A stretch of DNA of 64,000 bases from Candidatus Acidiferrales bacterium (GTDB taxonomy: Bacteria; Acidobacteriota; Terriglobia; Acidiferrales; UBA7541). Position 1 is the stretch's first letter. Each line of letters opens with the position of its first letter. Location of the stretch: the NCBI GenBank assembly GCA_049797655.1, contig JBARFX010000074.1, positions 42,696 through 106,695 on the forward strand, in the 5' to 3' direction. This document shows, piece after piece, positions 30,849-39,352 of this stretch. The notes under the pieces were generated by a model. That model searched no databases and was not told where the DNA came from. It saw only the letters and a list, made by a program, of their open reading frames with translations. The translations under genes were made by a program, and so were the position numbers.

Positions 30849-33371
30849 TCAGTGGCCGCGATAGAGCTCGAAGGGTGCCCAATAGAATGGCTTTTGGTAA
30901 ACCGTCCCGGAGTGAAGCAGCTTCAGTTTCGCGTGGCGCAGGGCAACGTCCGGCGCGGATCCTTTCTTAATCTCACCATAGAGATCATCCATCAATGCCG
31001 GCGTGGAGTTGTCGTTGACCTCCCACAATGCCGCGATCACTCCATGCGCGCCTGCGCGCAAGAACGCCCACGTCAGCCCGACGAGACCTTCGCCGGAGTA
31101 CGTGCGCTCCCCCGCCCCGTGACATGCCGAAATCGTCACCAAATCTGCGTTCAACGGCTGCAACACAATATCTCGCGCATACAGTTTGTAGGAATCGCCT
31201 TCCTTCGTGAGAATCACAGCAGAATCAAGCGGGCTCGCGCGGCTCGCAGTGCCGTGCGCCACAAAATGGATGAACGAATATTGCGCCGGCCTGCTGCTCA
31301 GATAAGCGGCCGCCGTCGCTCGCTGCCGCGATAGGACAGTGCGATCCGGCGCCGCAAAATATCGCTCTACATCGCCCATTTCGGCAGCCGCCTGCGGCAG
31401 GTCTGGAAACTCCGCGTTCGGCGAGAGCGGGTCGCCAATCAATAACAGCTTTTTCAACCTTGCCGGCCGCTCGTTCGCGGACGCAGCCAGCAAGACCAGT
31501 GAATTCGCGTTTGCGACAACCGCATCTTCGATCCAGTAGTGAAGCGTGGGCGTCGGAACAAGCAGTGTCTCGAAATTCAAGTCGTACAAACCGCCGTCCG
31601 GTAGCACAATCACGCGCGAGCCGGGCGGGATCAACTTCTGCGCCGGTGCAACTAACAGCTCGTACAGTTTAATTCCCTGTGCATTCGCAGTTTCCAGCAA
31701 GTTTCTAGGCCCAAGCAGCGCTTCGCGGTACGGCTTGATCAACGCTTCGATTTCGGAAGCAGGTGGCAGCGTAAAAAGCCTTACGCCAGATCGCGTCGCT
31801 GCCCAAAAATACGAATGCTTCTCGCCCAGCCAGTAAAACAGCAGCGTCGCGCCAAATCGCTGCGCAATCGACTGTGGCTGAAAGTTCGGAAGCGGAAACG
31901 AGATCTTTGAGCTGAGTCCGAGCCCCTCGGCAAGTGTCTGCGCCCTGCTCACCTCGGCAACTTGCAACGCGTCCTCAGTCCTGCCCTGCGAAATCAGGAA
32001 ATCGACGTAGTCATCGTAGAATGCGATCGCGCTCGTGAGAAACGGCAGGCGCAATTCTTCACGATCAATCGACGACCTGGCCTTTTCAATCGTTGCAATC
32101 GACTGTCGAAACTCATTCTCGGCATTTTTTGGGCGACCTTCGGCGACATACACTTCCGCCAGCCGCGCTGCGGCTTCCCAACGCAGCGAAGCTCCGGCGT
32201 TGGGGTCATGCACGACGTGCTGAAACGATTGTTCCGCCTGTGCGTATTCCCTTCTTATTTGGGCGATGCGGCCCCCGATGATCAGAGCGTTCAACTCAAC
32301 GTAAGGGTCGGGATATGCGCGCACAAACTGCACAACGGAATCATAGAAGTGCTGCGCTGACTCGGTCTGCCCCGTTTCCAAAGCTACCAGCGCAAGGTTC
32401 TCAAGACCTTCCGCCGTGGATTTTTCATCTCCAAGATTTTTTGCGAAATCGAGTGCTTTCTCGTAGGCGAGCCTTGCGGAAGCGTAATTGCGTTGTGCGA
32501 GGTTTACGTTGCCGATGTTCATCCGCCAGTAGACTCGATCCCCCGCAAGACCTACCTTTGCAGCCGCCTCTTCAGCCTGTTGATAGAGCACGAGGGCGTT
32601 CTCGAAATCTCCCATCTCGAAATAGCTCCAACCCAGGTTCCCGTAGATTTTTGATATCGAGCTCTCCGCATGCACGGATCTCGATAATTGCAAGGCCTGG
32701 CGATTCCAATCGATTGATTCGTCGTAATGGCCCCTCTTCGTCGCAACGACAGCCAGGCTACCGAGAGCCGCGATTTCCAGAAATGAATCATTTTGTTGGC
32801 GCGCGATTCGGAGAGTGTCGCGGTAGTTCGATTCTGCAACACCAAAATCGTCGCTCAAGTTGGCGAGAGTGCCCTTTCTTAAGTAGACCTCGCCCAACAG
32901 ATTCGGACAGTGGGCTTTTGCTGTTTCTTCTGCCTCGCCAAGATACCGGTCAGCATCCTTGTATTGGAGCAAGTGAGTCTTCGCAGAGCCCTGGGTCAAT
33001 TTGCGCCATACGACAAGGTCGCAGTTCGCAACTGAGGAGGGAATTTCCTGCTCGAGGATGGCCAAAGAATCGCGGTCACGTCGTTCTTGGACGAGTACTT
33101 TTGCCTTCAGCAGAAGAAAACGCCAGTGCCACTCATTTTCGGCGGAGGTGAATTTGTGGAGTCCGGACTCAGTTTCGGACAATGCTCCGCTCAAGTCGCC
33201 GTGCTGGAGTTTGAGTGAAGCGTCTTCGTAGGCTCGTTCCGGAGAAAATGGAGCGGGACGCTTGCACCCCGCTCCGCACAATATAAATCCCAGGCAAACC
33301 AGGCGTCCTATGGCCAGGTAGTGCCGTTGCCAACGCCTTGCGCTGCTGACATCGCACCGGCAACCGGGCAA
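30849..33371 (-). CDS. TPR-repeat / CHAT-domain (caspase-like) protease, probably exported or membrane-anchored
   Basis: C-terminal CHAT domain with His in FIHFVAHG and Cys in LVTISACHGAG, then GLTWAFLRAGAHGVIAALWEVND. Multiple TPR units occupy the middle. N-terminal hydrophobic segment LAIGRLVCLGFILCGAGC. The start is uncertain: the track ORF runs to 33524 (TTG), and other in-frame candidates are GTG 33494 and TTG 33371. Confidence 0.8.
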   Translation of the reverse strand: MPGCRCDVSSARRWQRHYLAIGRLVCLGFILCGAGCKRPAPFSPERAYEDASLKLQHGDLSGALSETESGLHKFTSAENEWHWRFLLLKAKVLVQERRDRDSLAILEQEIPSSVANCDLVVWRKLTQGSAKTHLLQYKDADRYLGEAEETAKAHCPNLLGEVYLRKGTLANLSDDFGVAESNYRDTLRIARQQNDSFLEIAALGSLAVVATKRGHYDESIDWNRQALQLSRSVHAESSISKIYGNLGWSYFEMGDFENALVLYQQAEEAAAKVGLAGDRVYWRMNIGNVNLAQRNYASARLAYEKALDFAKNLGDEKSTAEGLENLALVALETGQTESAQHFYDSVVQFVRAYPDPYVELNALIIGGRIAQIRREYAQAEQSFQHVVHDPNAGASLRWEAAARLAEVYVAEGRPKNAENEFRQSIATIEKARSSIDREELRLPFLTSAIAFYDDYVDFLISQGRTEDALQVAEVSRAQTLAEGLGLSSKISFPLPNFQPQSIAQRFGATLLFYWLGEKHSYFWAATRSGVRLFTLPPASEIEALIKPYREALLGPRNLLETANAQGIKLYELLVAPAQKLIPPGSRVIVLPDGGLYDLNFETLLVPTPTLHYWIEDAVVANANSLVLLAASANERPARLKKLLLIGDPLSPNAEFPDLPQAAAEMGDVERYFAAPDRTVLSRQRATAAAYLSSRPAQYSFIHFVAHGTASRASPLDSAVILTKEGDSYKLYARDIVLQPLNADLVTISACHGAGERTYSGEGLVGLTWAFLRAGAHGVIAALWEVNDNSTPALMDDLYGEIKKGSAPDVALRHAKLKLLHSGTVYQKPFYWAPFELYRGH

Positions 33372-34084
33372 CCAAGCTCGAAGCGAAGCATCGTCACGGT
33401 TCGTTTGCTGTGCTGAGCAAAGACTTCTCCGACAAAAACTCTCCCGAACTCGGGAATGTCGAAGGCATGGCCTTGCCGCTTGACTCCCGGGCACGTCGTC
33501 TTCATGTCTTTGACGAGGGAGCAAAGCATCACTCCATGAGCTTGGATCGTTTTTGGTGTCTGACCCGGTTGAAACGGATCGCCAGCCATTTTGCGGAATC
33601 CAGCGTTAGATTCAAACTCTTTTCTCAAGGCTTCGAACGTGTTCAGCCGCAGAAAGAGTTCGTCGTCGAATTCCACATGAACTTTGCACCCCGCGATCGT
33701 CAGATTGTCAATCTTGCTTCCCAGCACGGTAATTTTCGCTTCCGCATCCTCCAGCTTGTGATTGCTTGCGATCCGAGTCACAAGCCGGTCCGCTGTCACT
33801 ACGTCAAGCACATTCAAACCCTCCACCGCGGAGGTAACCAGAGTCGTATGGCTTCCATCTTCCTCGCTCTTGCTTCCGGAAACCGTCGTGTGCCCACACT
33901 TGAACGAAACGAATTGATTGAACCGGAAGTTTTCCACTCGCGAGCTGCCGTGGCCTCCGATCGCTGGAAGCGACATTCCGGCTTGTACTTCGATGAGTTG
34001 ATCGAGCGGTCTCTTAATGTGGCCGCTCAGAGCATGTCCGTGCGCGTTGTAGATGTACGTCTTGCGAGGGTTTTCCTTTTGCAT
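33308..34084 (-). CDS. Uncharacterised conserved-looking protein (258 aa) encoded between the anti-sigma and CHAT genes
   Basis: ATG at 34084 preceded by AGGAGG 9 nt upstream. No signal peptide and no motif I can assign. Ends ...MLRFELGCPVAGAMSAAQGVGNGTTWP. Confidence 0.6.
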   Translation of the reverse strand: MQKENPRKTYIYNAHGHALSGHIKRPLDQLIEVQAGMSLPAIGGHGSSRVENFRFNQFVSFKCGHTTVSGSKSEEDGSHTTLVTSAVEGLNVLDVVTADRLVTRIASNHKLEDAEAKITVLGSKIDNLTIAGCKVHVEFDDELFLRLNTFEALRKEFESNAGFRKMAGDPFQPGQTPKTIQAHGVMLCSLVKDMKTTCPGVKRQGHAFDIPEFGRVFVGEVFAQHSKRTVTMLRFELGCPVAGAMSAAQGVGNGTTWP

Positions 34085-34112
34085 TGGCGCTGCCTCCTGC
34101 GTCAATATCAAG

Positions 34113-34814
34113 CTACTTGGTGTATTCGAGAGAGAACGGATAACGAACGACGCCTATCTTATCCGCATCGGTCTTTTCAGGCGAGCCCAATCCTCGCACA
34201 ACGAGGACATGCTTTCCCGATGCCAGGCGTCCGGCAGGTATCAACAACTGGACGGTTTGCTTCGCTTCTTGCGCGGATACATTCAACGCCAATTCAGGCG
34301 TTCCGGATTCGCTCTGAAACTCGCACACATAGGAAGAAAACTGGCTCTGCGGCGGAATATCAATGAACATGCTGAAGAACTTGTCAGACGGCACCGAGAT
34401 CGTCAGCGGAGCTGCGCCTCGCGAATTCTGCCCGATCAACGAAAATGACGGAAGTGTCTGCGGAGCTTCCGATTGCGACAGCGCCGTCTTCAAATGTGGA
34501 ATCGTCACCGCGTTCTGATACGCAGCGACCATCAATAGCAGTGCCAGCGCAGGAGCGGCAAAAGCCGGACGCATCAGCACTCCCCACCAACGGCCAACTC
34601 GCTTTCCCGCCGGCCGCACTGATGCTTCCGCGACCGTTCCGGCGCTCCAAACATCCCGCGCATTGTCGACGAACACCGCGCCAGCTCGAACATCCTGCGC
34701 GCACTCCATACATCCGAAATAATGGTCCTCGTACTGGTCGCGCAATTCAGCGCTCAATTCGCCCAGGAGGTATTTCTCAGCGGCTTTTAGCCGTATCGCT
34801 TCGGAATGGTTCAT
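34113..34814 (-). CDS. Anti-sigma factor (zf-HC2 type), single-pass membrane protein
   Basis: MNHSEAIRLKAAEKYLLGEL...EDHYFGCMECA carries the H-x3-C-x2-C motif. TM segment AFAAPALALLLMVAAY. GGGAGG lies 9 nt upstream of ATG 34814. The track ORF begins at TTG 34850. Confidence 0.75.
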   Translation of the reverse strand: MNHSEAIRLKAAEKYLLGELSAELRDQYEDHYFGCMECAQDVRAGAVFVDNARDVWSAGTVAEASVRPAGKRVGRWWGVLMRPAFAAPALALLLMVAAYQNAVTIPHLKTALSQSEAPQTLPSFSLIGQNSRGAAPLTISVPSDKFFSMFIDIPPQSQFSSYVCEFQSESGTPELALNVSAQEAKQTVQLLIPAGRLASGKHVLVVRGLGSPEKTDADKIGVVRYPFSLEYTK

Positions 34815-34856
34815 TGTGTTCATCCTCCCAGTAGTGACGTGGGAGCGCAAATCGTT

Positions 34857-35543
34857 TCATCTGTGGCCCGATTCGCCCGCAGGTAGGCGGGCCGGCGGTT
34901 CCGCTTGCTCATAAAGCGTCCTAAAGCTCTGTTTGGCCCGGTGCAACAGCACTCTCAGATAGTCGCGATCGACCCCAAAGTCTACGCAAATCTCGTCCTT
35001 ATCCTTATCCTCAAAGAACATGGCACGCAGCAGCCGCCTCTCTTTCTCGGAAAGTTTTGAAAGCGTTAGCTTTACGTGTTCCTGAGTCTGTTTTGCCACG
35101 AGTATCCCATCCAAATCAATGCTCTCATCAGGAGGATCAAGCGGAGTCTCGTCCGATGGTACACCGCGCGCGGCGGAACGGTAGTATTCCTGCAACACAT
35201 TGTTACATATAGAGTTAACGAAAGACCCAAGCCCTTCCGCACTCCGGATCCCGCCCTGCATTCGCATAGCTTTCAGTACGCGGACGAATGTCTCCTGACG
35301 GATATCTTCAACGGCTTGCGAAGAACGAAGGCGGGACCGCAGCTTAATCAGCAAGAGCTGGCTGAAATAGCTGACAAAATGCTGCTCCGTCGGAAAGTCC
35401 CGGTCTCGGAGCCTCTGAAGATAGGCCTCATCGAACGAGAAGAATTCCACATGCCCCTCATGAGGGCACGAAGTATATCCCCCTATGAAATCAAGCGCAA
35501 TGACGCTTCCCGCGCACTGAAGAAGACACCTCCACTTAGCCAT
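34857..35543 (-). CDS. ECF-type RNA polymerase sigma-70 factor with a Cys/His-containing N-terminal extension
   Basis: Region 2 ...VEDIRQETFVRVL.... Region 4 LSEKERRLLRAMFFEDKDKDEICVDFGVDRDYLRVLLHRAKQSF. ATG 35543 is preceded by AGGAG 6 nt upstream. Confidence 0.85.
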   Translation of the reverse strand: MAKWRCLLQCAGSVIALDFIGGYTSCPHEGHVEFFSFDEAYLQRLRDRDFPTEQHFVSYFSQLLLIKLRSRLRSSQAVEDIRQETFVRVLKAMRMQGGIRSAEGLGSFVNSICNNVLQEYYRSAARGVPSDETPLDPPDESIDLDGILVAKQTQEHVKLTLSKLSEKERRLLRAMFFEDKDKDEICVDFGVDRDYLRVLLHRAKQSFRTLYEQAEPPARLPAGESGHR

Positions 35544-35634
35544 ATCGAACTCCTGACTCAAAAAAGAAACAAAAAAACTTTCCCAAACTGAAACGATTCA
35601 CGCCCTGAGCGCACTATTTCCAGGTAATGGCCGA

Positions 35635-35660
35635 TACGTTGGCAGTGCAATTCGAGGTTC
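35635..35660 (-). promoter_or_regulatory. Candidate ECF-type promoter upstream of the sigma gene
   Basis: The minus strand reads GAACC-tcgaattgcactgcca-ACGTA. This is an AAC ... CGT arrangement with an 18-nt gap, slightly longer than the 16-17 nt typical for ECF promoters. Confidence 0.3.
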
Positions 35661-35788
35661 TGAGTCAGAAGGATGGCAATGCTCGAACTCCTCACGCCCC
35701 AGGCGCATCCCGGTCGTCCCTACCCCGAGCGAACCGGGGTGCGCTTCCCCGCCATTCCGACGAGGACCGAAAGAGGAGAACTAAAAAC

Positions 35789-36238
35789 ATGAGCCATCCG
35801 ATCGAAACTGAAGCCACACGAATTGAGGACGTCGTTTTCAATTCTGATCCATGGGAAGCGAGAACCACATTGGCGCCAAACGGTAGCTTGGGATTCCGAA
35901 CCTTGAATGTGCGGTCCGTAGAATTCATCGCTCAGCCCGGGAGAATTCGCGAATTGCGGAATTGCGTCCAGGGGCCTTTGATGGACCACCTGAAAAAACA
36001 GCGAGGCTTCGCTGGCGCGATCGTGCTCAGTTCCCATAAGGAGCCGCGGCTGATCCTCGTCATGAGTCTGTGGAAAGCCGAGAAGGACGCGACCGGAAAC
36101 CGATGGGAGACCTCGGCGGCGATTCTCAAAATGATTTCGCCCCTGATCGATGTCTGCTCGAGAGTTCATACCTACGAAGCAGCTCTGCCAAATCTCGTGG
36201 ACACTCCTGCGGCCATCATTGCCGCCCCGGTTTGCTGA
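35789..36238 (+). CDS. Hypothetical protein (possibly ABM/ferredoxin-like fold)
   Basis: ATG with AGAGGAG upstream. ...GFAGAIVLSSHKEPRLILVMSLWKAEKDA... is reminiscent of antibiotic-biosynthesis-monooxygenase-like domains. This is weak. Confidence 0.4.
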   Translation: MSHPIETEATRIEDVVFNSDPWEARTTLAPNGSLGFRTLNVRSVEFIAQPGRIRELRNCVQGPLMDHLKKQRGFAGAIVLSSHKEPRLILVMSLWKAEKDATGNRWETSAAILKMISPLIDVCSRVHTYEAALPNLVDTPAAIIAAPVC

Positions 36239-36324
36239 TGCGAGCGCTTATCGCTGAATTCCAACACGCCGAACCGACGGGTCGTCACTTGCCCGGATAC
36301 AGACCATTCGAGGAAACGAGGGCT

Positions 36325-36777
36325 ATGAAAGAAGATTCCGTGGAGCAAATCAAACCAGCGGAAGGAACCGAGCTATCCGCGAGGAAGTGGATTCGATGCG
36401 ACACGCAGCACTGCGGAAACCCCGCGGTCGGCCTGCTCGCGCTTCGTTTTTACTGTACCGGGCACTTCATAACGCACTGCTACGAGAAGTTGGATCGATG
36501 CAACTCCAATCCGCTAAGCGACGCAGACGTCGTTACCTCCGTCGCAGTCGATCGCTTTCTTCAACAGTGCATGGCACAGGCGGGAGAGCTCGTCCGTCCC
36601 ACTCACGGCTTTGACAACCTCGACCGCGCACGGCTCTTCGACATTTTCCTCTGGGCGTCGGATCTAGTCGCTAAGAGAAGCGTGTTCAGAATTGACAATG
36701 CGCTCGTACCGGAAAACAGTTTTGATTCCACCAGTGGGGATGCCACAAATCAGTTCAAGAAGGCCGCTGGCGAATAG
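36325..36777 (+). CDS. Hypothetical Cys/His-rich protein
   Basis: ATG preceded by GAGGAAACGAGGG. N-terminal CDTQHCGNP...FYCTGHFITHCYEKLDRC. An alternative coupled start exists at 36238 (TGATG overlap with the upstream gene). Confidence 0.4.
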   Translation: MKEDSVEQIKPAEGTELSARKWIRCDTQHCGNPAVGLLALRFYCTGHFITHCYEKLDRCNSNPLSDADVVTSVAVDRFLQQCMAQAGELVRPTHGFDNLDRARLFDIFLWASDLVAKRSVFRIDNALVPENSFDSTSGDATNQFKKAAGE

Positions 36778-36783
36778 TCTGAT

Positions 36784-37701
36784 CTACAGCGTCTTCACTT
36801 GCTTCACGGCCCGGTCAAGCGATTGGCGGCTTTGGAAAAAATCTCTCCACGGGTCTGTTTGCTTGGCACGTTGCGCGAAGTTCCCGATATTGAATTTCGA
36901 AGGAACAATCCCGGGCTTCACCTCCGCCCAGGAAAGCGGGGTCGACACGGGAGCTTTCGGTTTCCGCCGCACCGAGTAAGGCATCACGACCGTCTGCCCA
37001 AATCCGTTCCGGAATGGATCGAGATAGACGCGCCCCTTCCGCGCCGCGATCGAATGCTCCACAGTCAGCTCATTTGAGTGTGCTGCCGCCACCCGGCCAA
37101 CGACTGCCTGCGCGAACGACAGCACGTCGCTCGCATCCGGTCCCACGCGAATCGGCACGAACACATGCATTCCGCGGCTGCCCGATGTTTTCGGAAACGA
37201 CACAAGCTTCAGGGCATCAAGCCCTTCCTTTATGTGAAGCGCCGCTCTCGCAGCATCGGCAAATTCCCCGGATTCAGGATCGAGGTCGAAGCACACCCAG
37301 TCGGGCTGTCGCGGAGAACTCGCGCGCCCGCCCATCGCGTGAACGGCAATGCATCCGAGATTCACAAGGGCAATTTGCGTCTCAAGGGTTCCTCCAACCA
37401 CATAGTTCGTGAACCGCCGCCGTCCTCCCTCGTTCTCAATTCGCTTTGAAGGCGTCCCGGCCGGCATGCCCTTCGGCATTTCCTTCTGATAAAAACATTC
37501 CCCGGCCAGTCCATCCGGGCACCGTTCCATAGTTAACAGGCGATCCCTCACGTACGGCGCAAGCTTGGGGAATATCGCTTGATAAAACTCCGCCAGATCG
37601 ATTTTAGTGTAGCCCTCGTCAGCCCAGAAAATTTTGTCGGGGTTCGAAATGTTCACCGGCAATCTCGCCGTGCCCTTCGCTTCCTTCTTCGTCTTCTTCA
37701 T
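36784..37701 (-). CDS. ligD: NHEJ polymerase/primase (LigD Pol domain) as a separate ORF
   Basis: ISNPDKIFW..., DLDP, KTSGSRGMHVFVPI, and YSVRRKP..VSTPLSWAE are LigD-Pol/AEP primase motifs. ATGA overlap with the ligase stop. Confidence 0.9.
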   Translation of the reverse strand: MKKTKKEAKGTARLPVNISNPDKIFWADEGYTKIDLAEFYQAIFPKLAPYVRDRLLTMERCPDGLAGECFYQKEMPKGMPAGTPSKRIENEGGRRRFTNYVVGGTLETQIALVNLGCIAVHAMGGRASSPRQPDWVCFDLDPESGEFADAARAALHIKEGLDALKLVSFPKTSGSRGMHVFVPIRVGPDASDVLSFAQAVVGRVAAAHSNELTVEHSIAARKGRVYLDPFRNGFGQTVVMPYSVRRKPKAPVSTPLSWAEVKPGIVPSKFNIGNFAQRAKQTDPWRDFFQSRQSLDRAVKQVKTL

Positions 37702-38621
37702 TTTTGCGGCTCCGGCAGCACAACTTCCTTTGGCTTCTTGTCGTCGCGCAAACCGAGAAAAACAGGCTGGCGCAATTTCATATCCGCCGTCCATTCTTGA
37801 AACGAAATCTGCGCCACAAATTTCGGAGCAAGGAACATTGCGCCCTTCTCCCTTGGTGGATCCACAAACGCCGGGCGGTCGCTTACGAAAGGCCGAAACT
37901 TCTTGTACAAGGAACTCAGCGAGGTCTCGTCGAATCCGGTGCCCACCTTTCCGACGAAGTGCAATTTCCCGTCCTGATACGCTCCCAGCAACAGCGCACC
38001 AAAATGTTTTCGCGCTCCTGCTGGTTTCGTAAATCCGCCGATCACAAACTCATCCTCCTGGTGCGCTTTCACCTTCAGCCAATCTCTCGATCGTCCCTCC
38101 GCATAGCGAGCAGAAAGATCCTTTGCTACCAGTCCCTCAAATCCCCGCCGCTTCGCCTCCCGGAACGCTTCCAATCCGTTCTTCGCAAGCCGTCGCGAGG
38201 GGATCAGAATGCCGCCGGCTCCAAGCGATTTCTCCATCGCCTCGCGCCGCACCGAAAGCCCCTCTCGCCGCAGATCCTTCCCGTCGCGATACAGGCAATC
38301 GAAAACGGCATACGCAGCCTCGCCTTTCCCTTGTTGCAACAACTGAAACCGGGAAACTTTCTTGCGATCGAACACCACAACCTCGCCATCCAGCAGCAGC
38401 GTCGCGGGCTTCAGCGCGCGCACCGCATCCGCGATCCGTGGAAATCCGCTCGTCCGGTCGATTTTGTTCCTCGAGATCAATCGAACGCGGCTCCCTTCCT
38501 TGTACGCGAGCATCCGAATCCCGTCGTACTTCTCCTCGTAGGCCCATCCGGGCTTGTCGAACGGCTCGCGAACAAGAGTCGCCAGCATCGGTTGAACGCG
38601 AAATGGAATTCGATCGCTCAC
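37698..38621 (-). CDS. ligD: ATP-dependent DNA ligase (LigD ligase domain) as a separate ORF
   Basis: VQPMLATLV, adenylation motif I EEKYDGIR, LLLDGEVVVFD, and EGLVAKD. Confidence 0.9.
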   Translation of the reverse strand: MSDRIPFRVQPMLATLVREPFDKPGWAYEEKYDGIRMLAYKEGSRVRLISRNKIDRTSGFPRIADAVRALKPATLLLDGEVVVFDRKKVSRFQLLQQGKGEAAYAVFDCLYRDGKDLRREGLSVRREAMEKSLGAGGILIPSRRLAKNGLEAFREAKRRGFEGLVAKDLSARYAEGRSRDWLKVKAHQEDEFVIGGFTKPAGARKHFGALLLGAYQDGKLHFVGKVGTGFDETSLSSLYKKFRPFVSDRPAFVDPPREKGAMFLAPKFVAQISFQEWTADMKLRQPVFLGLRDDKKPKEVVLPEPQK

Positions 38622-38662
38622 GTGGCGTGCTTGCTCCTCGACCGCAGTACGAACAAACGAAC

Positions 38663-39352
38663 TTAAGCTCGCCGCTTACGGGGACGCGCCGCGGCTGCCG
38701 GCTTTGTTCTTTTTGAAGTTGTCTTGGACAGTGCCTTGCCTGTGGGGTCGCCCGTTGCGGCCACTTCCACGTCGCCTCCACCGTCTCGCGCAATATCTGC
38801 GAGAAGACGGTTACTCAGCGCCGACCTCGGTTCTGTTATCGTCAGGTTTTTCGACGATGCGAACTTGTCGCGGTGTTTTATCAATAGCCACGAAGGTTTA
38901 CTGCTTCCCCCGAAGCCTCGCGTCCGCACTAGCACCCACGATCCTTTCAACTTCCTGCCGTGGAGCGTGAACTTCAAATCGCCCTTCTCGAGCGCCACAC
39001 TCGGGTCCGGCTGCTCCGGCTCCCAAGTTCCTGTGTCCCACACCATCACCGTTCCCCCGCCGTACTCGCCCTCCGGTATCACGCCCTCAAAACTCGCGTA
39101 TTCAATCGGATGATCTTCCACCTGCATCGCCAGTCGTTTGACCGCCGGATCGGTCGACGGGCCCTTCGGCACGGCCCAGGAGAGCAGTGTTCCCTTCCAC
39201 TCCAATCGAAAATCGTAGTGCAAACGCGAGGCGCGGTGCTTCTGTACGACGAAAATCAGCGACGGATCCTTTCGATTGTTCGCTTCGCCCTTACCCGCCG
39301 GCTCCGGTGTCACTCCAAACCGCCGTTTCTTCCGATATTCTTTTAAAGTCAT
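38663..39352 (-). CDS. ligD: LigD 3'-phosphoesterase (PE) domain protein with a basic C-terminal tail
   Basis: LKEYRKKRRFGVTPEP, FVVQKHRASRLHYDFRLE, LLSWAVPKGPS, and EDHPIEY. The tail is ...KRTKPAAAARPRKRRA. Confidence 0.9.
   Translation of the reverse strand: MTLKEYRKKRRFGVTPEPAGKGEANNRKDPSLIFVVQKHRASRLHYDFRLEWKGTLLSWAVPKGPSTDPAVKRLAMQVEDHPIEYASFEGVIPEGEYGGGTVMVWDTGTWEPEQPDPSVALEKGDLKFTLHGRKLKGSWVLVRTRGFGGSSKPSWLLIKHRDKFASSKNLTITEPRSALSNRLLADIARDGGGDVEVAATGDPTGKALSKTTSKRTKPAAAARPRKRRA

What the first reader, a model, noticed from the sequence alone, without database searches (positions are those of the whole stretch)
30849..35660. Four-gene operon: ECF sigma, zf-HC2 anti-sigma, unknown protein, TPR-CHAT caspase-like protease
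All four ORFs lie on the minus strand, separated by short gaps or overlapping: sigma 35543..34857, anti-sigma 34814..34113, unknown 34084..33308, and TPR-CHAT from about 33371 to 30849. The CHAT domain keeps the caspase-like His (FIHFVAHG) and Cys (ISACHG).

CHAT proteases are effectors or signal processors in several recently described conflict and signalling systems. Here one is hard-wired to an ECF sigma/anti-sigma pair plus an unassignable protein. A plausible model is a proteolytic switch in which the TPR sensor activates CHAT, CHAT cleaves the anti-sigma factor or the unknown protein, and sigma is released. The mechanism is undescribed as far as I know.
Basis: partly seen in the sequence, partly recalled or inferred. 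Interest (0 to 1): 0.65.

Follow-up and report, generated by a model that had tools for sequence, protein, structure and literature searches.

The report
Split DdvA-like sigma/anti-sigma protease cassette
A six-gene switch conserved across soil Acidobacteria pairs a stress sigma factor and its membrane inhibitor with a separately encoded, exported caspase-like protease and an unknown-fold protein, which should allow a direct test of whether such proteases release sigma factors.

Summary
The four ORFs are real. They are co-linear in all 76 species-level loci long enough to show all four. The unit is larger than reported: two divergent genes bring it to 30849-36777.

Two gene starts need correcting. 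Sigma starts at GTG 35450. The CHAT gene starts at TTG 33524, inside the upstream gene, giving a 217-nt out-of-frame overlap that is under selection.

The "unknown" protein is DUF8256. It has no signal peptide and no structural match. Elsewhere it is fused to CHAT-core proteins in the position where relatives carry TIR or caspase domains.

The TPR-CHAT protein has a lipoprotein-type leader and an invariant His/Cys dyad. Its best PDB structural match is the periplasmic domain of the Myxococcus anti-sigma DdvA.

A motif, TGAAACG-N16-CACTA, occurs exactly twice in the window: upstream of the anti-sigma gene and upstream of the divergent pair. It is conserved at both positions family-wide. Sigma has its own housekeeping-like promoter.

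Best reading: a split DdvA-type switch in which the exported CHAT protease cuts the anti-sigma's periplasmic domain. This step is inferred, not shown.

The idea is not undescribed; DdvA/DdvS and Craspase Csx29-Csx30-sigma are precedents. I rate it a new variant of a known kind.

The parts
36325..36777 (+). Second gene of the divergent pair: a 150-aa Cys/His-rich protein (CDTQHC...CTGHFITHC...C) with no family assignment
   Evidence: tblastn finds it next to the ABM-like gene in most of the 65 related loci that hit at least one gene of the divergent pair. NCBI calls a 150-aa gene at this position. No Pfam, NCBIfam, PADLOC or PDB sequence hit.
35789..36238 (+). First gene of the divergent pair: a 149-aa protein with only a faint ABM (dimeric alpha+beta barrel) resemblance
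   Evidence: Most of the 65 related loci with a divergent-pair hit carry it. Pfam ABM E 0.089, far below cutoff. A 149-aa gene with a 'faint' ABM mark is called in L001-L004.
35589..35616 (+). ECF-type promoter motif TGAAACGATTCACGCCCTGAGCGCACTA, pointing at the divergent pair
   Evidence: One of only two exact matches in the 64-kb window, where 0.16 are expected. At the same relative position, 62 of 77 non-redundant loci match exactly and 7 more have one mismatch. The motif moves with the ABM-like gene in loci where that gene is displaced.
35472..35500 (-). Housekeeping-like promoter of the sigma gene: TTGCGC, 17-nt spacer, TATACT
   Evidence: TTGCNN-N16-18-TA[TG]A[ACG]T lies 19-29 nt upstream of the conserved sigma start in 59 of 73 loci. 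The background rate is 0.004 per 90 nt. The generic sigma-70 scanner does not call it, because the -35 matches only 3 of 6 positions.
34857..35450 (-). ECF sigma factor, 197 aa, GTG start
   Evidence: TIGR02937 54.9 bits, above cutoff. The start is conserved immediately before EFFSFDEAYLQRLR in 79 loci, often with a stop codon just upstream. NCBI aa.
34832..34859 (-). Internal ECF-type promoter motif TGAAACGATTTGCGCTCCCACGTCACTA, overlapping the sigma stop codon and lying 17 nt upstream of the anti-sigma ATG
   Evidence: The second exact match in the window. At this position 49 loci match exactly and 22 have one mismatch. A Shine-Dalgarno-like GGGAGG follows, and the distance to the MNH/MDH start is about 8-17 nt.
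34113..34814 (-). Single-pass ZAS-type anti-sigma factor, 233 aa: cytoplasmic HxxxCxxC domain, transmembrane helix (about residues 83-103), periplasmic domain of about 125 aa
   Evidence: Pfam zf-HC2 E 0.0037, sub-threshold. The motif and transmembrane segment are conserved in 80 sequences. The best PDB sequence hit is the ZAS anti-sigma RslA, 3hug_B, E 0.26.
33308..34084 (-). DUF8256 (PF26784) protein, 258 aa, no signal peptide, beta-rich fold without a structural match
   Evidence: 559 homologues, and 1604 clusters at 50% identity. The AlphaFold2 model has pLDDT 78 and pTM 0.77. Foldseek finds no match in PDB or BFVD: best E 0.07-0.1, TM below 0.2. None of 140 representatives has a hydrophobic N-terminus.
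30849..33524 (-). TPR-CHAT caspase-like protease precursor, 891 aa: a 65-aa basic overprinted leader, an 18-aa hydrophobic segment, Cys87 (33264-33266), TPR/helical repeats, and a CHAT domain with His757 (31254-31256) and Cys801 (31122-31124)
   Evidence: Pfam CHAT 2e-48 plus TPRs. The dyad is invariant and the Cys after the hydrophobic run is at least 90% conserved. Homologues carry lipoprotein-type leaders. The AlphaFold2 model has pLDDT 84, and its top Foldseek PDB hits are DdvA 8rw5/8rot (E 4.5e-17, TM 0.55-0.56).
33308..33524 (-). 217-nt out-of-frame overlap between the DUF8256 3' end and the CHAT 5' end; the CHAT gene is in the -1/+2 frame
   Evidence: In 73 of 80 loci the last 75 DUF8256 codons have no -1-frame stop. 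Synonymous shuffles expect 2.1 stops, with a mean P(0) of 0.12. The codon before Cys188 always creates TTG, GTG or ATG in loci with overlapping genes, but CTG where the genes are separate.

Best explanation
This is a self-contained six-gene envelope-signalling cassette of Acidobacteriota (class Terriglobia). It works as a 'split DdvA' switch.

Shown:
- Strict co-linearity of the genes.
- An intact His/Cys dyad.
- Conservation of the export signal.
- Fold similarity to the periplasmic domain of DdvA.
- Conservation of the promoter-like motifs at fixed positions.

Inferred, in order:
1. The ECF sigma is made from its own housekeeping-like promoter. It is held at the membrane by the single-pass ZAS anti-sigma.
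2. The TPR-CHAT protein is exported, either as a lipoprotein or as an N-terminally anchored protein. It is the counterpart of the periplasmic TPR-CHAT domain that DdvA carries in one polypeptide.
3. On binding a periplasmic (probably protein or peptide) cue through its TPR superhelix, it acts as a dedicated site-1 protease on the anti-sigma's periplasmic or juxtamembrane part.
4. An RseP-type site-2 protease and cytoplasmic proteases then free the sigma.
5. Free sigma reads the two TGAAACG-N16-CACTA promoters. It raises expression of anti-sigma, DUF8256 and TPR-CHAT, which provides feedback, and of the divergent ABM-like and Cys-rich pair.
6. DUF8256 is a cytoplasmic sigma-induced partner or effector. 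Its production is locked to that of the protease by a selected 217-nt gene overlap.
For: - Co-linearity: sigma, anti-sigma, DUF8256 and TPR-CHAT are in the same order in 76 of 76 informative species-level loci, despite different flanking genes.
- Catalytic site: His and Cys are invariant.
- Export: a hydrophobic run followed by [GAS]-Cys is conserved. Classic lipoprotein leaders with their own ATG occur in Acidobacteriaceae loci.
- Anti-sigma topology: ZAS motif, one transmembrane segment, then a periplasmic domain.
- Fold: the full-length CHAT model matches DdvA best in the whole PDB (TM 0.55-0.56 over 866 columns). Csx29 scores TM 0.37/0.41 and separase lower still.
- Precedent: the DdvA papers propose the same protease-then-RseP logic, and show RseP-dependent degradation once the TPR-CHAT domain is removed (PMC11506125).
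- Promoters: the motif occurs exactly twice in the window, where 0.16 matches are expected, and sits at both conserved positions in about 70 loci. Sigma has a separate conserved promoter.
Against: - No cleavage, binding or transcription was measured.
- Even for DdvA, the CHAT-as-site-1-protease step is unproven, and dyad mutants had no phenotype without the unknown signal.
- The model gives DUF8256 no necessary role, yet DUF8256 is inseparable from CHAT. Elsewhere it is fused to cytoplasmic CHAT-core proteins, which points to a direct DUF8256-CHAT partnership across what should be a membrane barrier.
- Assigning the motif to this sigma rests on position and its TGAAAC -35 element only.
- The 86-aa leader is very long for a lipoprotein signal.
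- Similarity to DdvA is structural only; sequence searches do not find it.
Confidence: 0.45

Rival explanations
1. Output-only model. The sigma/anti-sigma pair senses something else, such as thiol or oxidative stress through the ZAS motif, or envelope stress through generic proteases. TPR-CHAT, DUF8256 and the divergent pair are simply the regulon it switches on. CHAT does not act on the anti-sigma.
For: - The ECF-type motif lies upstream of anti-sigma, DUF8256 and CHAT, so these genes look like sigma targets.
- The HxxxCxxC motif is conserved, and such motifs are redox sensors in some anti-sigmas (RsrA and ChrR types; general knowledge).
- In some genomes the motif also precedes other secreted or phosphoesterase genes.
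Against: - Regulon members usually vary between genomes. Here CHAT and DUF8256 never separate from the sigma/anti-sigma pair in 76 loci.
- The only characterised relative by fold is itself part of an anti-sigma.
- Most ZAS-motif anti-sigmas are not redox sensors.
Confidence: 0.25
2. Protease-effector model. DUF8256 is the direct partner or substrate of the CHAT protease, as in conflict systems where a caspase-like protease controls an effector. Contact would be through a non-exported CHAT isoform or through the 65-aa cytoplasmic leader. The sigma/anti-sigma pair only sets expression.
For: - DUF8256 is fused to the N-terminus of a CHAT-core protein family in at least 6 clusters. It occupies the position where homologues carry TIR_2, Peptidase_C14, HEAT or HTH domains. 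One such gene sits beside T4SS and SSB genes.
- The two genes overlap by 217 nt under selection, which locks their expression together.
Against: - The export signal on CHAT is conserved, and DUF8256 has none.
- The model does not explain why a membrane anti-sigma with a periplasmic domain is always present.
- No PADLOC defence model matches any cassette protein beyond generic TPR.
- DUF8256 does not resemble gasdermins or any solved effector.
Confidence: 0.15
3. Frameshift-fusion model. Ribosomes translating DUF8256 slip by -1 in its last third and produce one DUF8256-TM-TPR-CHAT polypeptide. That would be a DdvA-like transmembrane protein whose cytoplasmic domain is DUF8256.
For: - The CHAT frame is always -1 relative to DUF8256 and is kept free of stops for at least 75 codons.
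- About half of the loci lack a canonical start close to the hydrophobic segment.
- Natural DUF8256-CHAT fusions exist.
Against: - A canonical start codon is maintained at a fixed internal position, sometimes through rare Leu codons. It is lost exactly in the loci where the genes are separate. An SD-like GGAG or GGGG lies 4-14 nt upstream of it in 54 of 77 loci.
- No slippery heptamer is conserved.
- A downstream hairpin is not conserved: mean z -0.9.
- Four loci have 220-280-nt gaps with stop codons between the two genes.
Confidence: 0.03

Closest known systems
[quoted passage not shown]
   Same: - An ECF sigma encoded next to a ZAS-type single-pass anti-sigma.
- A large extracytoplasmic TPR-CHAT module with a conserved His/Cys dyad.
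- The window's CHAT model matches DdvA best in the whole PDB, over its whole length.
- The proposed logic is the same: CHAT as site-1 protease, followed by RseP.
   Different: - Here the anti-sigma and the TPR-CHAT are two proteins, each with its own membrane or export signal, separated by the DUF8256 gene.
- The anti-sigma has its own periplasmic domain of about 125 aa.
- No sequence-level similarity to DdvA is detectable.
- The regulon holds no CBASS or CRISPR genes.
- The cassette is in Acidobacteriota, whereas the authors found fused DdvA-like proteins only in Myxococcota and one Comamonas.
- Sigma is not preceded by its own ECF-type promoter.
Type III-E CRISPR Craspase module: Csx29 (TPR-CHAT), Csx30, Csx31 and CASP-sigma (PMC10028731)
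   Same: - A TPR-CHAT protease genetically linked to an ECF-like sigma, a sigma inhibitor and a further conserved protein of unknown role.
- Cleavage of the inhibitor by the protease is the proposed route to sigma activity.
- Csx29 is the second-best structural match.
   Different: - Csx29 is cytoplasmic and is activated by RNA-bound Cas7-11. No Cas genes lie around the cassette (gene calls).
- The NCBIfam Csx29 model scores 13.7 bits against a cutoff of 300.
- The inhibitor here is a membrane ZAS anti-sigma, not Csx30.
- DUF8256 shows no structural similarity to any PDB chain, and the PDB includes Csx30.
Classical regulated intramembrane proteolysis of anti-sigma factors (RseA/DegS/RseP, RsiW/PrsW/RasP)
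   Same: - A single-pass anti-sigma with a cytoplasmic sigma-binding domain and an extracytoplasmic domain.
- A signal-activated extracytoplasmic protease is proposed to make the first cut.
   Different: - The candidate site-1 protease is a caspase-fold cysteine protease with a TPR sensor, encoded in the same operon. It is not a PDZ serine protease or a PrsW-type metalloprotease.
- An extra cytoplasmic protein, DUF8256, is part of the unit.
ECF group ECF54 (sigma factors with CHAT, subtilase or carboxypeptidase genes in their neighbourhood; PMC8999054, citing Casas-Pastor 2021)
   Same: An ECF sigma with a conserved CHAT-domain neighbour, taken to suggest proteolytic control.
   Different: - ECF54 is described as lacking an anti-sigma factor; this cassette always has one.
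- Membership could not be tested, because the ECF group HMMs were not available.
CHAT-core proteins with variable N-terminal domains (the P0128 family found here)
   Same: DUF8256 and a CHAT protease are functionally tied. DUF8256 sits where relatives carry TIR_2 or Peptidase_C14 domains.
   Different: - These are single cytoplasmic polypeptides without TPR, a transmembrane segment or a signal peptide.
- They have no sigma/anti-sigma pair nearby.
- One lies next to conjugation genes.

Membership tests
ECF (group IV) sigma-70 factors | [quoted passage not shown] | tested here: met
   TIGR02937 54.9 bits (cutoff 42.9), covering residues 60-213 of the long ORF. Pfam r2 (23.1 against 24) and r4_2 (22.2 against 25.7) fall just below cutoff. 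The conserved-start product is 197 aa.
ECF (group IV) sigma-70 factors | A cognate anti-sigma gene directly downstream | tested here: met
   The ZAS anti-sigma starts 43 nt after the sigma stop in the window. The same arrangement holds in all informative loci.
ECF (group IV) sigma-70 factors | Assignment to a numbered ECF group and to that group's known mechanism | not testable with these tools
   The ECF Hub group HMMs are not in any library here. The supplement of PMC7826278 is not held. No specific NCBIfam equivalog reaches its cutoff.
ECF (group IV) sigma-70 factors | A group-specific promoter with an AAC-containing -35 element, found at its own locus | tested here: inconclusive
   TGAAACG-N16-CACTA is conserved at two fixed positions in the cassette. 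It lies upstream of the anti-sigma and the divergent pair, not upstream of sigma. Recognition by this sigma is inferred, not measured.
Class I zinc-binding (ZAS) anti-sigma factors | An N-terminal anti-sigma domain with the HxxxCxxC motif | tested here: met
   DHYFGCMEC is conserved as EEHYFxCxEC in 80 sequences. The Pfam zf-HC2 hit is only E 0.0037, below cutoff. The segment aligns to RslA 3hug_B.
Class I zinc-binding (ZAS) anti-sigma factors | Binds and inhibits its sigma | not testable with these tools
   No binding assay or complex prediction was available.
CHAT domain (PF12770) caspase-fold cysteine proteases | Pfam CHAT above the gathering score, with a conserved His-Cys dyad | tested here: met
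   165.7 bits against a cutoff of 24. His757 and Cys801 are invariant in 25 sequences.
CHAT domain (PF12770) caspase-fold cysteine proteases | Proteolytic activity | not testable with these tools
   Requires biochemistry.
DdvA-type TPR-CHAT anti-sigma factors | One polypeptide: cytoplasmic ZAS domain, transmembrane helix and periplasmic TPR-CHAT | tested here: not met
   The ZAS-TM part (34113-34814) and the TPR-CHAT part (30849-33524) are separate genes, with DUF8256 between them, in all loci.
DdvA-type TPR-CHAT anti-sigma factors | Overall fold of the periplasmic scaffold-TPR-CHAT domain | tested here: met
   The top two Foldseek PDB hits are 8rw5 and 8rot_A: E 4.5e-17 and 4.2e-16, TM 0.53-0.56, 866-878 aligned columns.
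DdvA-type TPR-CHAT anti-sigma factors | Extracytoplasmic location of the TPR-CHAT domain | tested here: inconclusive
   A conserved hydrophobic run plus [GAS]-Cys leader, and a positively charged N-terminal flank, predict export. No signal-peptide predictor or experiment was available.
DdvA-type TPR-CHAT anti-sigma factors | Controls a CBASS/CRISPR defence island | tested here: not met
   The neighbours are LigD, thiolase and acyl-CoA synthetase genes. No PADLOC defence model matches beyond generic TPR.
Type III-E Craspase (Csx29/Csx30/Csx31/CASP-sigma) | Csx29 family membership and association with Cas7-11 | tested here: not met
   NF041237 Csx29 scores 13.7 bits against a cutoff of 300. No Cas genes appear among the called neighbours. 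The structural match to Csx29 is weaker than to DdvA.
Bacterial gasdermin-protease systems | A gasdermin-fold protein of about 250-300 aa next to a caspase-like protease | tested here: not met
   The DUF8256 model has no Foldseek hit to any PDB chain at E < 0.1, and TM is below 0.2.
DUF8256 (PF26784) | Match to the Pfam model | tested here: met
   PF26784 is pre-computed for the window's own protein (P0001) and for all 120 listed homologues. The local Pfam copy lacks the model. NCBIfam choice_anch_P scores 25.4 bits, just under its cutoff of 27.

The most novel reading that the evidence does not exclude
The cassette is an Acidobacteria-wide, CRISPR-independent, envelope-triggered caspase-like signalling or immune module. 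In this reading the TPR-CHAT protein keeps its 65-aa overprinted cytoplasmic tail, and that tail docks DUF8256. DUF8256 would be a novel-fold effector domain, the same one that elsewhere replaces TIR or caspase effectors on CHAT-core proteins. One transmembrane protease complex would then both release an ECF sigma in the periplasm and control a cytoplasmic effector. The long selected gene overlap would enforce the stoichiometry of protease and effector.
Probability: 0.12. Interest if true: 0.85.

Novelty: new variant of a known kind. Interest (0 to 1): 0.6.

Why it matters
**A direct test of a stalled hypothesis.** The idea that a caspase-fold TPR-CHAT domain is the site-1 protease of an anti-sigma factor is currently stuck. 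In DdvA the protease and its substrate are one chain, and the activating signal is unknown. Here they are separate proteins, so cleavage in trans can be tested with purified parts and catalytic mutants.

**Wider distribution.** The cassette extends this kind of switch from a few Myxococcota to a large, ecologically dominant soil phylum.

**A context for DUF8256.** It ties an unstudied family with an unmatched predicted fold (1604 clusters at 50% identity) to CHAT proteases in two independent architectures.

**A predicted promoter and regulon.** It provides a clean, testable sigma promoter motif and a minimal regulon.

**A selected gene overlap.** It gives a statistically supported bacterial case of a 217-nt out-of-frame gene overlap that gene callers miss. 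They placed the CHAT start anywhere between 588 and 908 aa of product length.

Tried and rejected
- **DUF8256 as gasdermin, pore-former or any solved fold.** Foldseek against PDB and BFVD gave nothing (best E 0.07-0.1, TM below 0.2). Rejected.
- **Known defence system.** PADLOC matched only a generic TPR model. The neighbouring genes are housekeeping genes.
- **Riboswitch or other RNA in the leaders.** Rfam found nothing at E <= 0.1.
- **Programmed -1 frameshift between DUF8256 and CHAT.** No slippery heptamer is conserved. The hairpin over the lipobox codon (33250-33275) is not generally conserved: mean z -0.9, with 20% of loci below -2. The start-codon evidence favours internal initiation.
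- **Sigma start at ATG 35543.** Not conserved; stop codons lie between it and the GTG in many loci.
- **Sequence-level link to DdvA or DdvS.** phmmer and hmmsearch of PDB found only TPR proteins for CHAT and a single unrelated ECF sigma.
- **ECF group classification.** Not possible; the supplement is not held.
- **hhalign of the CHAT alignment against P0128.** Weak (E 0.017). The link was established through P0128's own homologues, which carry PF12770.
- **Generic sigma-70 scanner.** It did not call the sigma promoter. Its conservation was shown separately.
- **Context of P0211.** No DNA was available for that sample.

Full report
**1. Observation**

- **Sigma.** It passes the NCBIfam ECF model: TIGR02937, 54.9 bits against a cutoff of 42.9. 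The Pfam region-2 and region-4 hits fall just under their cutoffs.
- **Anti-sigma.** The Pfam zf-HC2 hit is sub-threshold (E 0.0037). The protein shows the HxxxCxxC motif (DHYFGCMEC), one hydrophobic transmembrane segment and a C-terminal domain of about 125 aa. All three are conserved in 80 homologues.
- **Third ORF.** It has no hit in the local Pfam copy. The database marks it as PF26784, DUF8256.
- **Fourth ORF.** It has strong TPR hits and a strong CHAT hit (2e-48). The His of FIHFVAHG and the Cys of ISACHG are invariant across a 25-sequence alignment.

**2. Co-conservation**

DUF8256 was used as bait against one genome per GTDB species. It returned 211 confirmed stretches, of which the best 80 were fetched. 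tblastn with the four window proteins gave these results:
- Sigma, anti-sigma, DUF8256 and TPR-CHAT lie in the same order and on the same strand in 76 of the 80 loci.
- The other four loci are cut by contig ends and keep the order of whatever is present.
- This holds down to 33% DUF8256 identity.

The flanking genes differ between genomes. Examples are mannosidase and epimerase genes in L001, and LigD and thiolase genes in the window. The genes therefore travel as a cassette.

Nearly all loci come from Acidobacteriota: Acidoferrales/"Acidiferrales", Sulfotelmatobacter, Acidobacteriaceae and one Bryobacteraceae. Some MAGs hold two copies (L008/L009, L057/L062).

**3. Corrected anatomy**

*Sigma start.* All homologues begin at a GTG, TTG or ATG directly before EFFSFDEAYLQRLR, often with a stop codon just upstream. 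The window's sigma therefore starts at GTG 35450 and is 197 aa, as NCBI also calls it for this genome. It does not start at ATG 35543.

*CHAT start.* The CHAT ORF is always in the -1/+2 frame relative to DUF8256. The DUF8256 stop lies 29-56 nt, mostly 38 or 41 nt, upstream of a conserved Cys that follows a hydrophobic run. About half of the loci have no ATG, GTG or TTG between 14 and 60 codons upstream of that Cys. Two tests then place the real start inside DUF8256.
- **Stop-codon depletion.**
  - In 73 of 80 loci the -1 frame has no stop codon over the last 75 DUF8256 codons.
  - Synonymous-codon shuffles predict 2.1 stops, with a mean probability of zero stops of 0.12.
  - The -1-frame stop density is 0.030 per codon earlier in the gene and 0.0017 in the last 75 codons.
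- **A maintained start codon.**
  - The third base of the codon before invariant Cys188, joined to the TG of the Cys codon, forms a codon in the CHAT frame. That codon is TTG in 40 loci, GTG in 16 and ATG in 12. The ATG is made with the rare Leu codons CTA or TTA.
  - The non-start CTG appears in 9 loci. Four are the loci where the two genes are separated and CHAT has its own ATG. One is L050. Four are L039-L043, where a TTG lies one codon upstream.
  - An SD-like GGAG or GGGG lies 4-14 nt upstream in 54 of 77 loci.

The loci are related, so these counts are not independent events. However, the start codon changes among T, G and A while avoiding C, and it is lost exactly where it is not needed.

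The window's CHAT gene is therefore 30849..33524 (891 aa, TTG). It overlaps DUF8256 by 217 nt. I found no conserved slippery heptamer. The hairpin over the Cys codon is not generally conserved. A frameshift fusion is therefore unlikely.

**4. Location of the proteins**

- **CHAT precursor.** It has three parts:
  - a basic 65-aa stretch with 15 K/R and 7 D/E;
  - an 18-aa hydrophobic segment;
  - Cys87.
- **Leaders in other loci.** Acidobacteriaceae loci have short classical lipoprotein leaders with their own ATG, for example MSGLRSQRLALLVLALSLALLWQGC. The Cys is at least 90% conserved.
- **Inference.** The TPR-CHAT part should be extracytoplasmic, either as a lipoprotein or N-terminally anchored. 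This is predicted from sequence, not measured.
- **Anti-sigma.** It is predicted N-in, C-out.
- **DUF8256.** None of 140 family representatives has a hydrophobic N-terminus, so it should be cytoplasmic.

**5. What the CHAT protein resembles**

An AlphaFold2 model (pLDDT 83.9, pTM 0.77) was searched against the PDB with Foldseek.

| Target | E-value | TM |
|---|---|---|
| DdvA, M. xanthus transmembrane anti-sigma (8rw5, 8rot_A), 866-878 columns | 4.5e-17 and 4.2e-16 | 0.53-0.56 |
| Craspase Csx29 (best entry, 8eey_B) | 1.7e-14 | 0.37/0.41 |
| Separase (best entry) | 1.0e-11 | lower |

Sequence searches do not detect DdvA, so the relationship is remote.

DdvA carries a cytoplasmic zinc-binding anti-sigma domain, a transmembrane helix and a periplasmic TPR-CHAT domain in one chain. 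Its authors propose that the CHAT domain clips the juxtamembrane linker in trans, after which RseP releases DdvS. They showed RseP-dependent loss of DdvA once the TPR-CHAT is removed. They did not find the signal or show CHAT activity (PMC11506125). They report fused DdvA-like proteins only in Myxococcota and one Comamonas.

The window's cassette is therefore a split version in another phylum.

**6. Regulatory elements**

*Sigma promoter.* Upstream of the conserved sigma start, 59 of 73 loci carry TTGCNN-N16-18-TA[TG]A[ACG]T, ending 19-29 nt before the start codon. In the window this is TTGCGC-17-TATACT at 35500..35472. The background rate is 0.004 per 90 nt. The element resembles a housekeeping-type promoter, although its -35 matches TTGACA at only 3 of 6 positions.

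*ECF-type motif.* TGAAACG-N16-CACTA has the TGAAAC -35 typical of many ECF promoters (general knowledge). It occurs exactly twice in the 64-kb window, where 0.16 matches are expected:
- at 34832-34859 on the minus strand, overlapping the sigma stop and 17 nt upstream of the anti-sigma ATG;
- at 35589-35616 on the plus strand, pointing at two divergent genes.

Counts in 77 non-redundant loci, 1.1 Mb in total:

| Position | Exact | One mismatch |
|---|---|---|
| Between sigma and anti-sigma | 49 | 22 |
| Divergent, upstream of sigma | 62 | 7 |
| Elsewhere | 14 | not tabulated here |

Several of the 14 other exact copies precede a displaced copy of the divergent gene (L033, L035, L036). Others precede extra neighbours: a Phosphoesterase-family gene in L060, L074 and L075, and a secreted protein in L070 and L072.

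*The divergent pair.* The two genes are a 149-aa protein with only a faint ABM resemblance and a 150-aa Cys/His-rich protein. At least one of them is detected in 65 related loci, and most of these carry both.

I infer that this motif is the cassette sigma's own promoter. On that reading the sigma is made constitutively, while anti-sigma, DUF8256, CHAT and the divergent pair are sigma-induced. No transcription data exist.

**7. DUF8256**

- The family is large: 1604 clusters at 50% identity with E <= 1e-3.
- The AlphaFold2 model (pLDDT 78, pTM 0.77) is mostly long beta strands with three helices and a disordered C-terminal tail.
- It matches nothing in PDB or BFVD.
- No paper in the library mentions it.
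- One representative, P0128 (889 aa), has DUF8256 fused to a C-terminal part with YCHGE and NACHS motifs. It sits beside T4SS and SSB genes, with no sigma nearby.
- Homologues of that C-terminal part mostly carry Pfam CHAT. Their N-terminal domains vary: DUF8256 in at least six clusters, and otherwise TIR_2, Peptidase_C14, HEAT, HTH and HU.

DUF8256 is therefore linked to CHAT proteases in two independent architectures. In the fused one it occupies a slot often filled by effector-type domains. This is the main observation that the simple 'site-1 protease' model does not explain.

**8. Mechanism and rivals**

- **Best-supported reading (confidence 0.45).** A split DdvA-type switch. The exported TPR-CHAT senses a periplasmic cue and cuts the anti-sigma's periplasmic or juxtamembrane part. 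Site-2 proteolysis frees sigma, and sigma then drives the two motif-bearing promoters.
  - *Shown:* co-linearity, the catalytic dyad, conservation of the export signal, fold similarity to DdvA, and motif conservation.
  - *Inferred:* export, cleavage, RseP involvement and the sigma-motif pairing.
- **Rival 1 (0.25).** CHAT and DUF8256 are only outputs of a sigma/anti-sigma pair that senses something else, for example through its ZAS motif.
- **Rival 2 (0.15).** DUF8256 is the direct partner or substrate of CHAT, through the cytoplasmic leader or a non-exported isoform.
- **Rival 3 (0.03).** A frameshift fusion product.
- **Chance adjacency.** Excluded by the co-linearity in 76 loci.

**9. Comparison with the known, and novelty**

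In Craspase, Csx29 cleaves Csx30, which inhibits CASP-sigma (PMC10028731). ECF54 has been noted for CHAT neighbours without an anti-sigma (PMC8999054).

- The cassette fails the defining single-polypeptide feature of DdvA and has no defence-island regulon.
- It fails Craspase membership: Csx29 scores 13.7 bits against a cutoff of 300, and there are no Cas genes.
- No PADLOC system matches.

I file it as a new variant of a known kind. It works like DdvA and like classical regulated intramembrane proteolysis, but it has a separate protease gene, an obligatory DUF8256 partner, a different promoter layout and a different phylum.

Its value is practical as well as conceptual. Protease and substrate can be tested in trans, DUF8256 gains a functional context, and the selected 217-nt overlap is an unusual, well-supported feature that gene callers miss.

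Interest: 0.6.

Noticed in passing
window 33308-33524 (minus strand): The CHAT gene starts inside DUF8256, giving a 217-nt out-of-frame overlap. The -1 frame is depleted of stops (73 of 80 loci have none, where 2.1 are expected). A start codon is maintained at a fixed site, sometimes through rare Leu codons, and is lost only where the genes are separate. Gene callers place the start anywhere, giving products of 588-908 aa.
   Followed up: yes
window 35472-35500 (minus strand): A conserved TTGCGC-N17-TATACT element lies upstream of the true sigma start in 59 of 73 loci. Sigma therefore seems to have a housekeeping-like promoter rather than an auto-regulated ECF promoter.
   Followed up: yes
L060 13514, L074 13363 and L075 11781 (plus strand); L070 2528 and L072 10560: Extra exact copies of TGAAACG-N16/17-CACTA precede a Phosphoesterase-family (PF04185) gene in three loci. 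In two Acidobacteriaceae loci they precede a secreted protein with a GGTSVASP serine-peptidase-like motif. These are possible lineage-specific regulon members.
   Followed up: partly
L085-L088, gene at 8001-10670 in L085-L087 (1861-4530 in L088) (P0128); homologues P0391-P0509: This is a CHAT-core protein family with swappable N-terminal domains: DUF8256, TIR_2, Peptidase_C14, HEAT, HTH, HU and CARDB. The DUF8256 version lies next to VirB3, VirB4, TrbC and SSB genes, which suggests a mobile-element conflict system.
   Followed up: partly
window 33250-33275 (minus strand): An 11-bp, GC-rich hairpin followed by ATTTTCTCC lies exactly over the lipobox Cys codon of the CHAT gene. Similar hairpins occur in about 20% of loci (z < -2) but are not general. 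Their role is unknown.
   Followed up: partly
window 36784-39352 (minus strand): Three separate genes for the LigD modules (Prim-Pol 336 aa, ATP-dependent ligase 307 aa, phosphoesterase 229 aa) lie directly beside the cassette. This is a split NHEJ ligase D rather than the fused form.
   Followed up: no
L014, L016, L018, L025, L032, L066: Cassettes with DUF8256 57-60% (44% in L066) identical to the window's sit in MAGs labelled Verrucomicrobiia, Dormibacterota, Binatia, Baltobacteraceae, Limnocylindrales or Eisenbacteria. All come from one SMAG series. This could be mis-binning or horizontal transfer.
   Followed up: no
L008/L009 (MAG MFD00731.bin.3.247) and L057/L062 (MAG SMAG_U9581): Two copies of the cassette occur in the same MAG, so paralogous cassettes may coexist in one genome.
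   Followed up: no
window 35616-35789 (plus strand): The divergent ABM-like gene would have a leader of about 130-175 nt downstream of the ECF-type motif in most loci. Rfam finds nothing there. In close relatives an upstream ATG (35627 in the window) would instead give a 203-aa product with an almost leaderless mRNA.
   Followed up: partly
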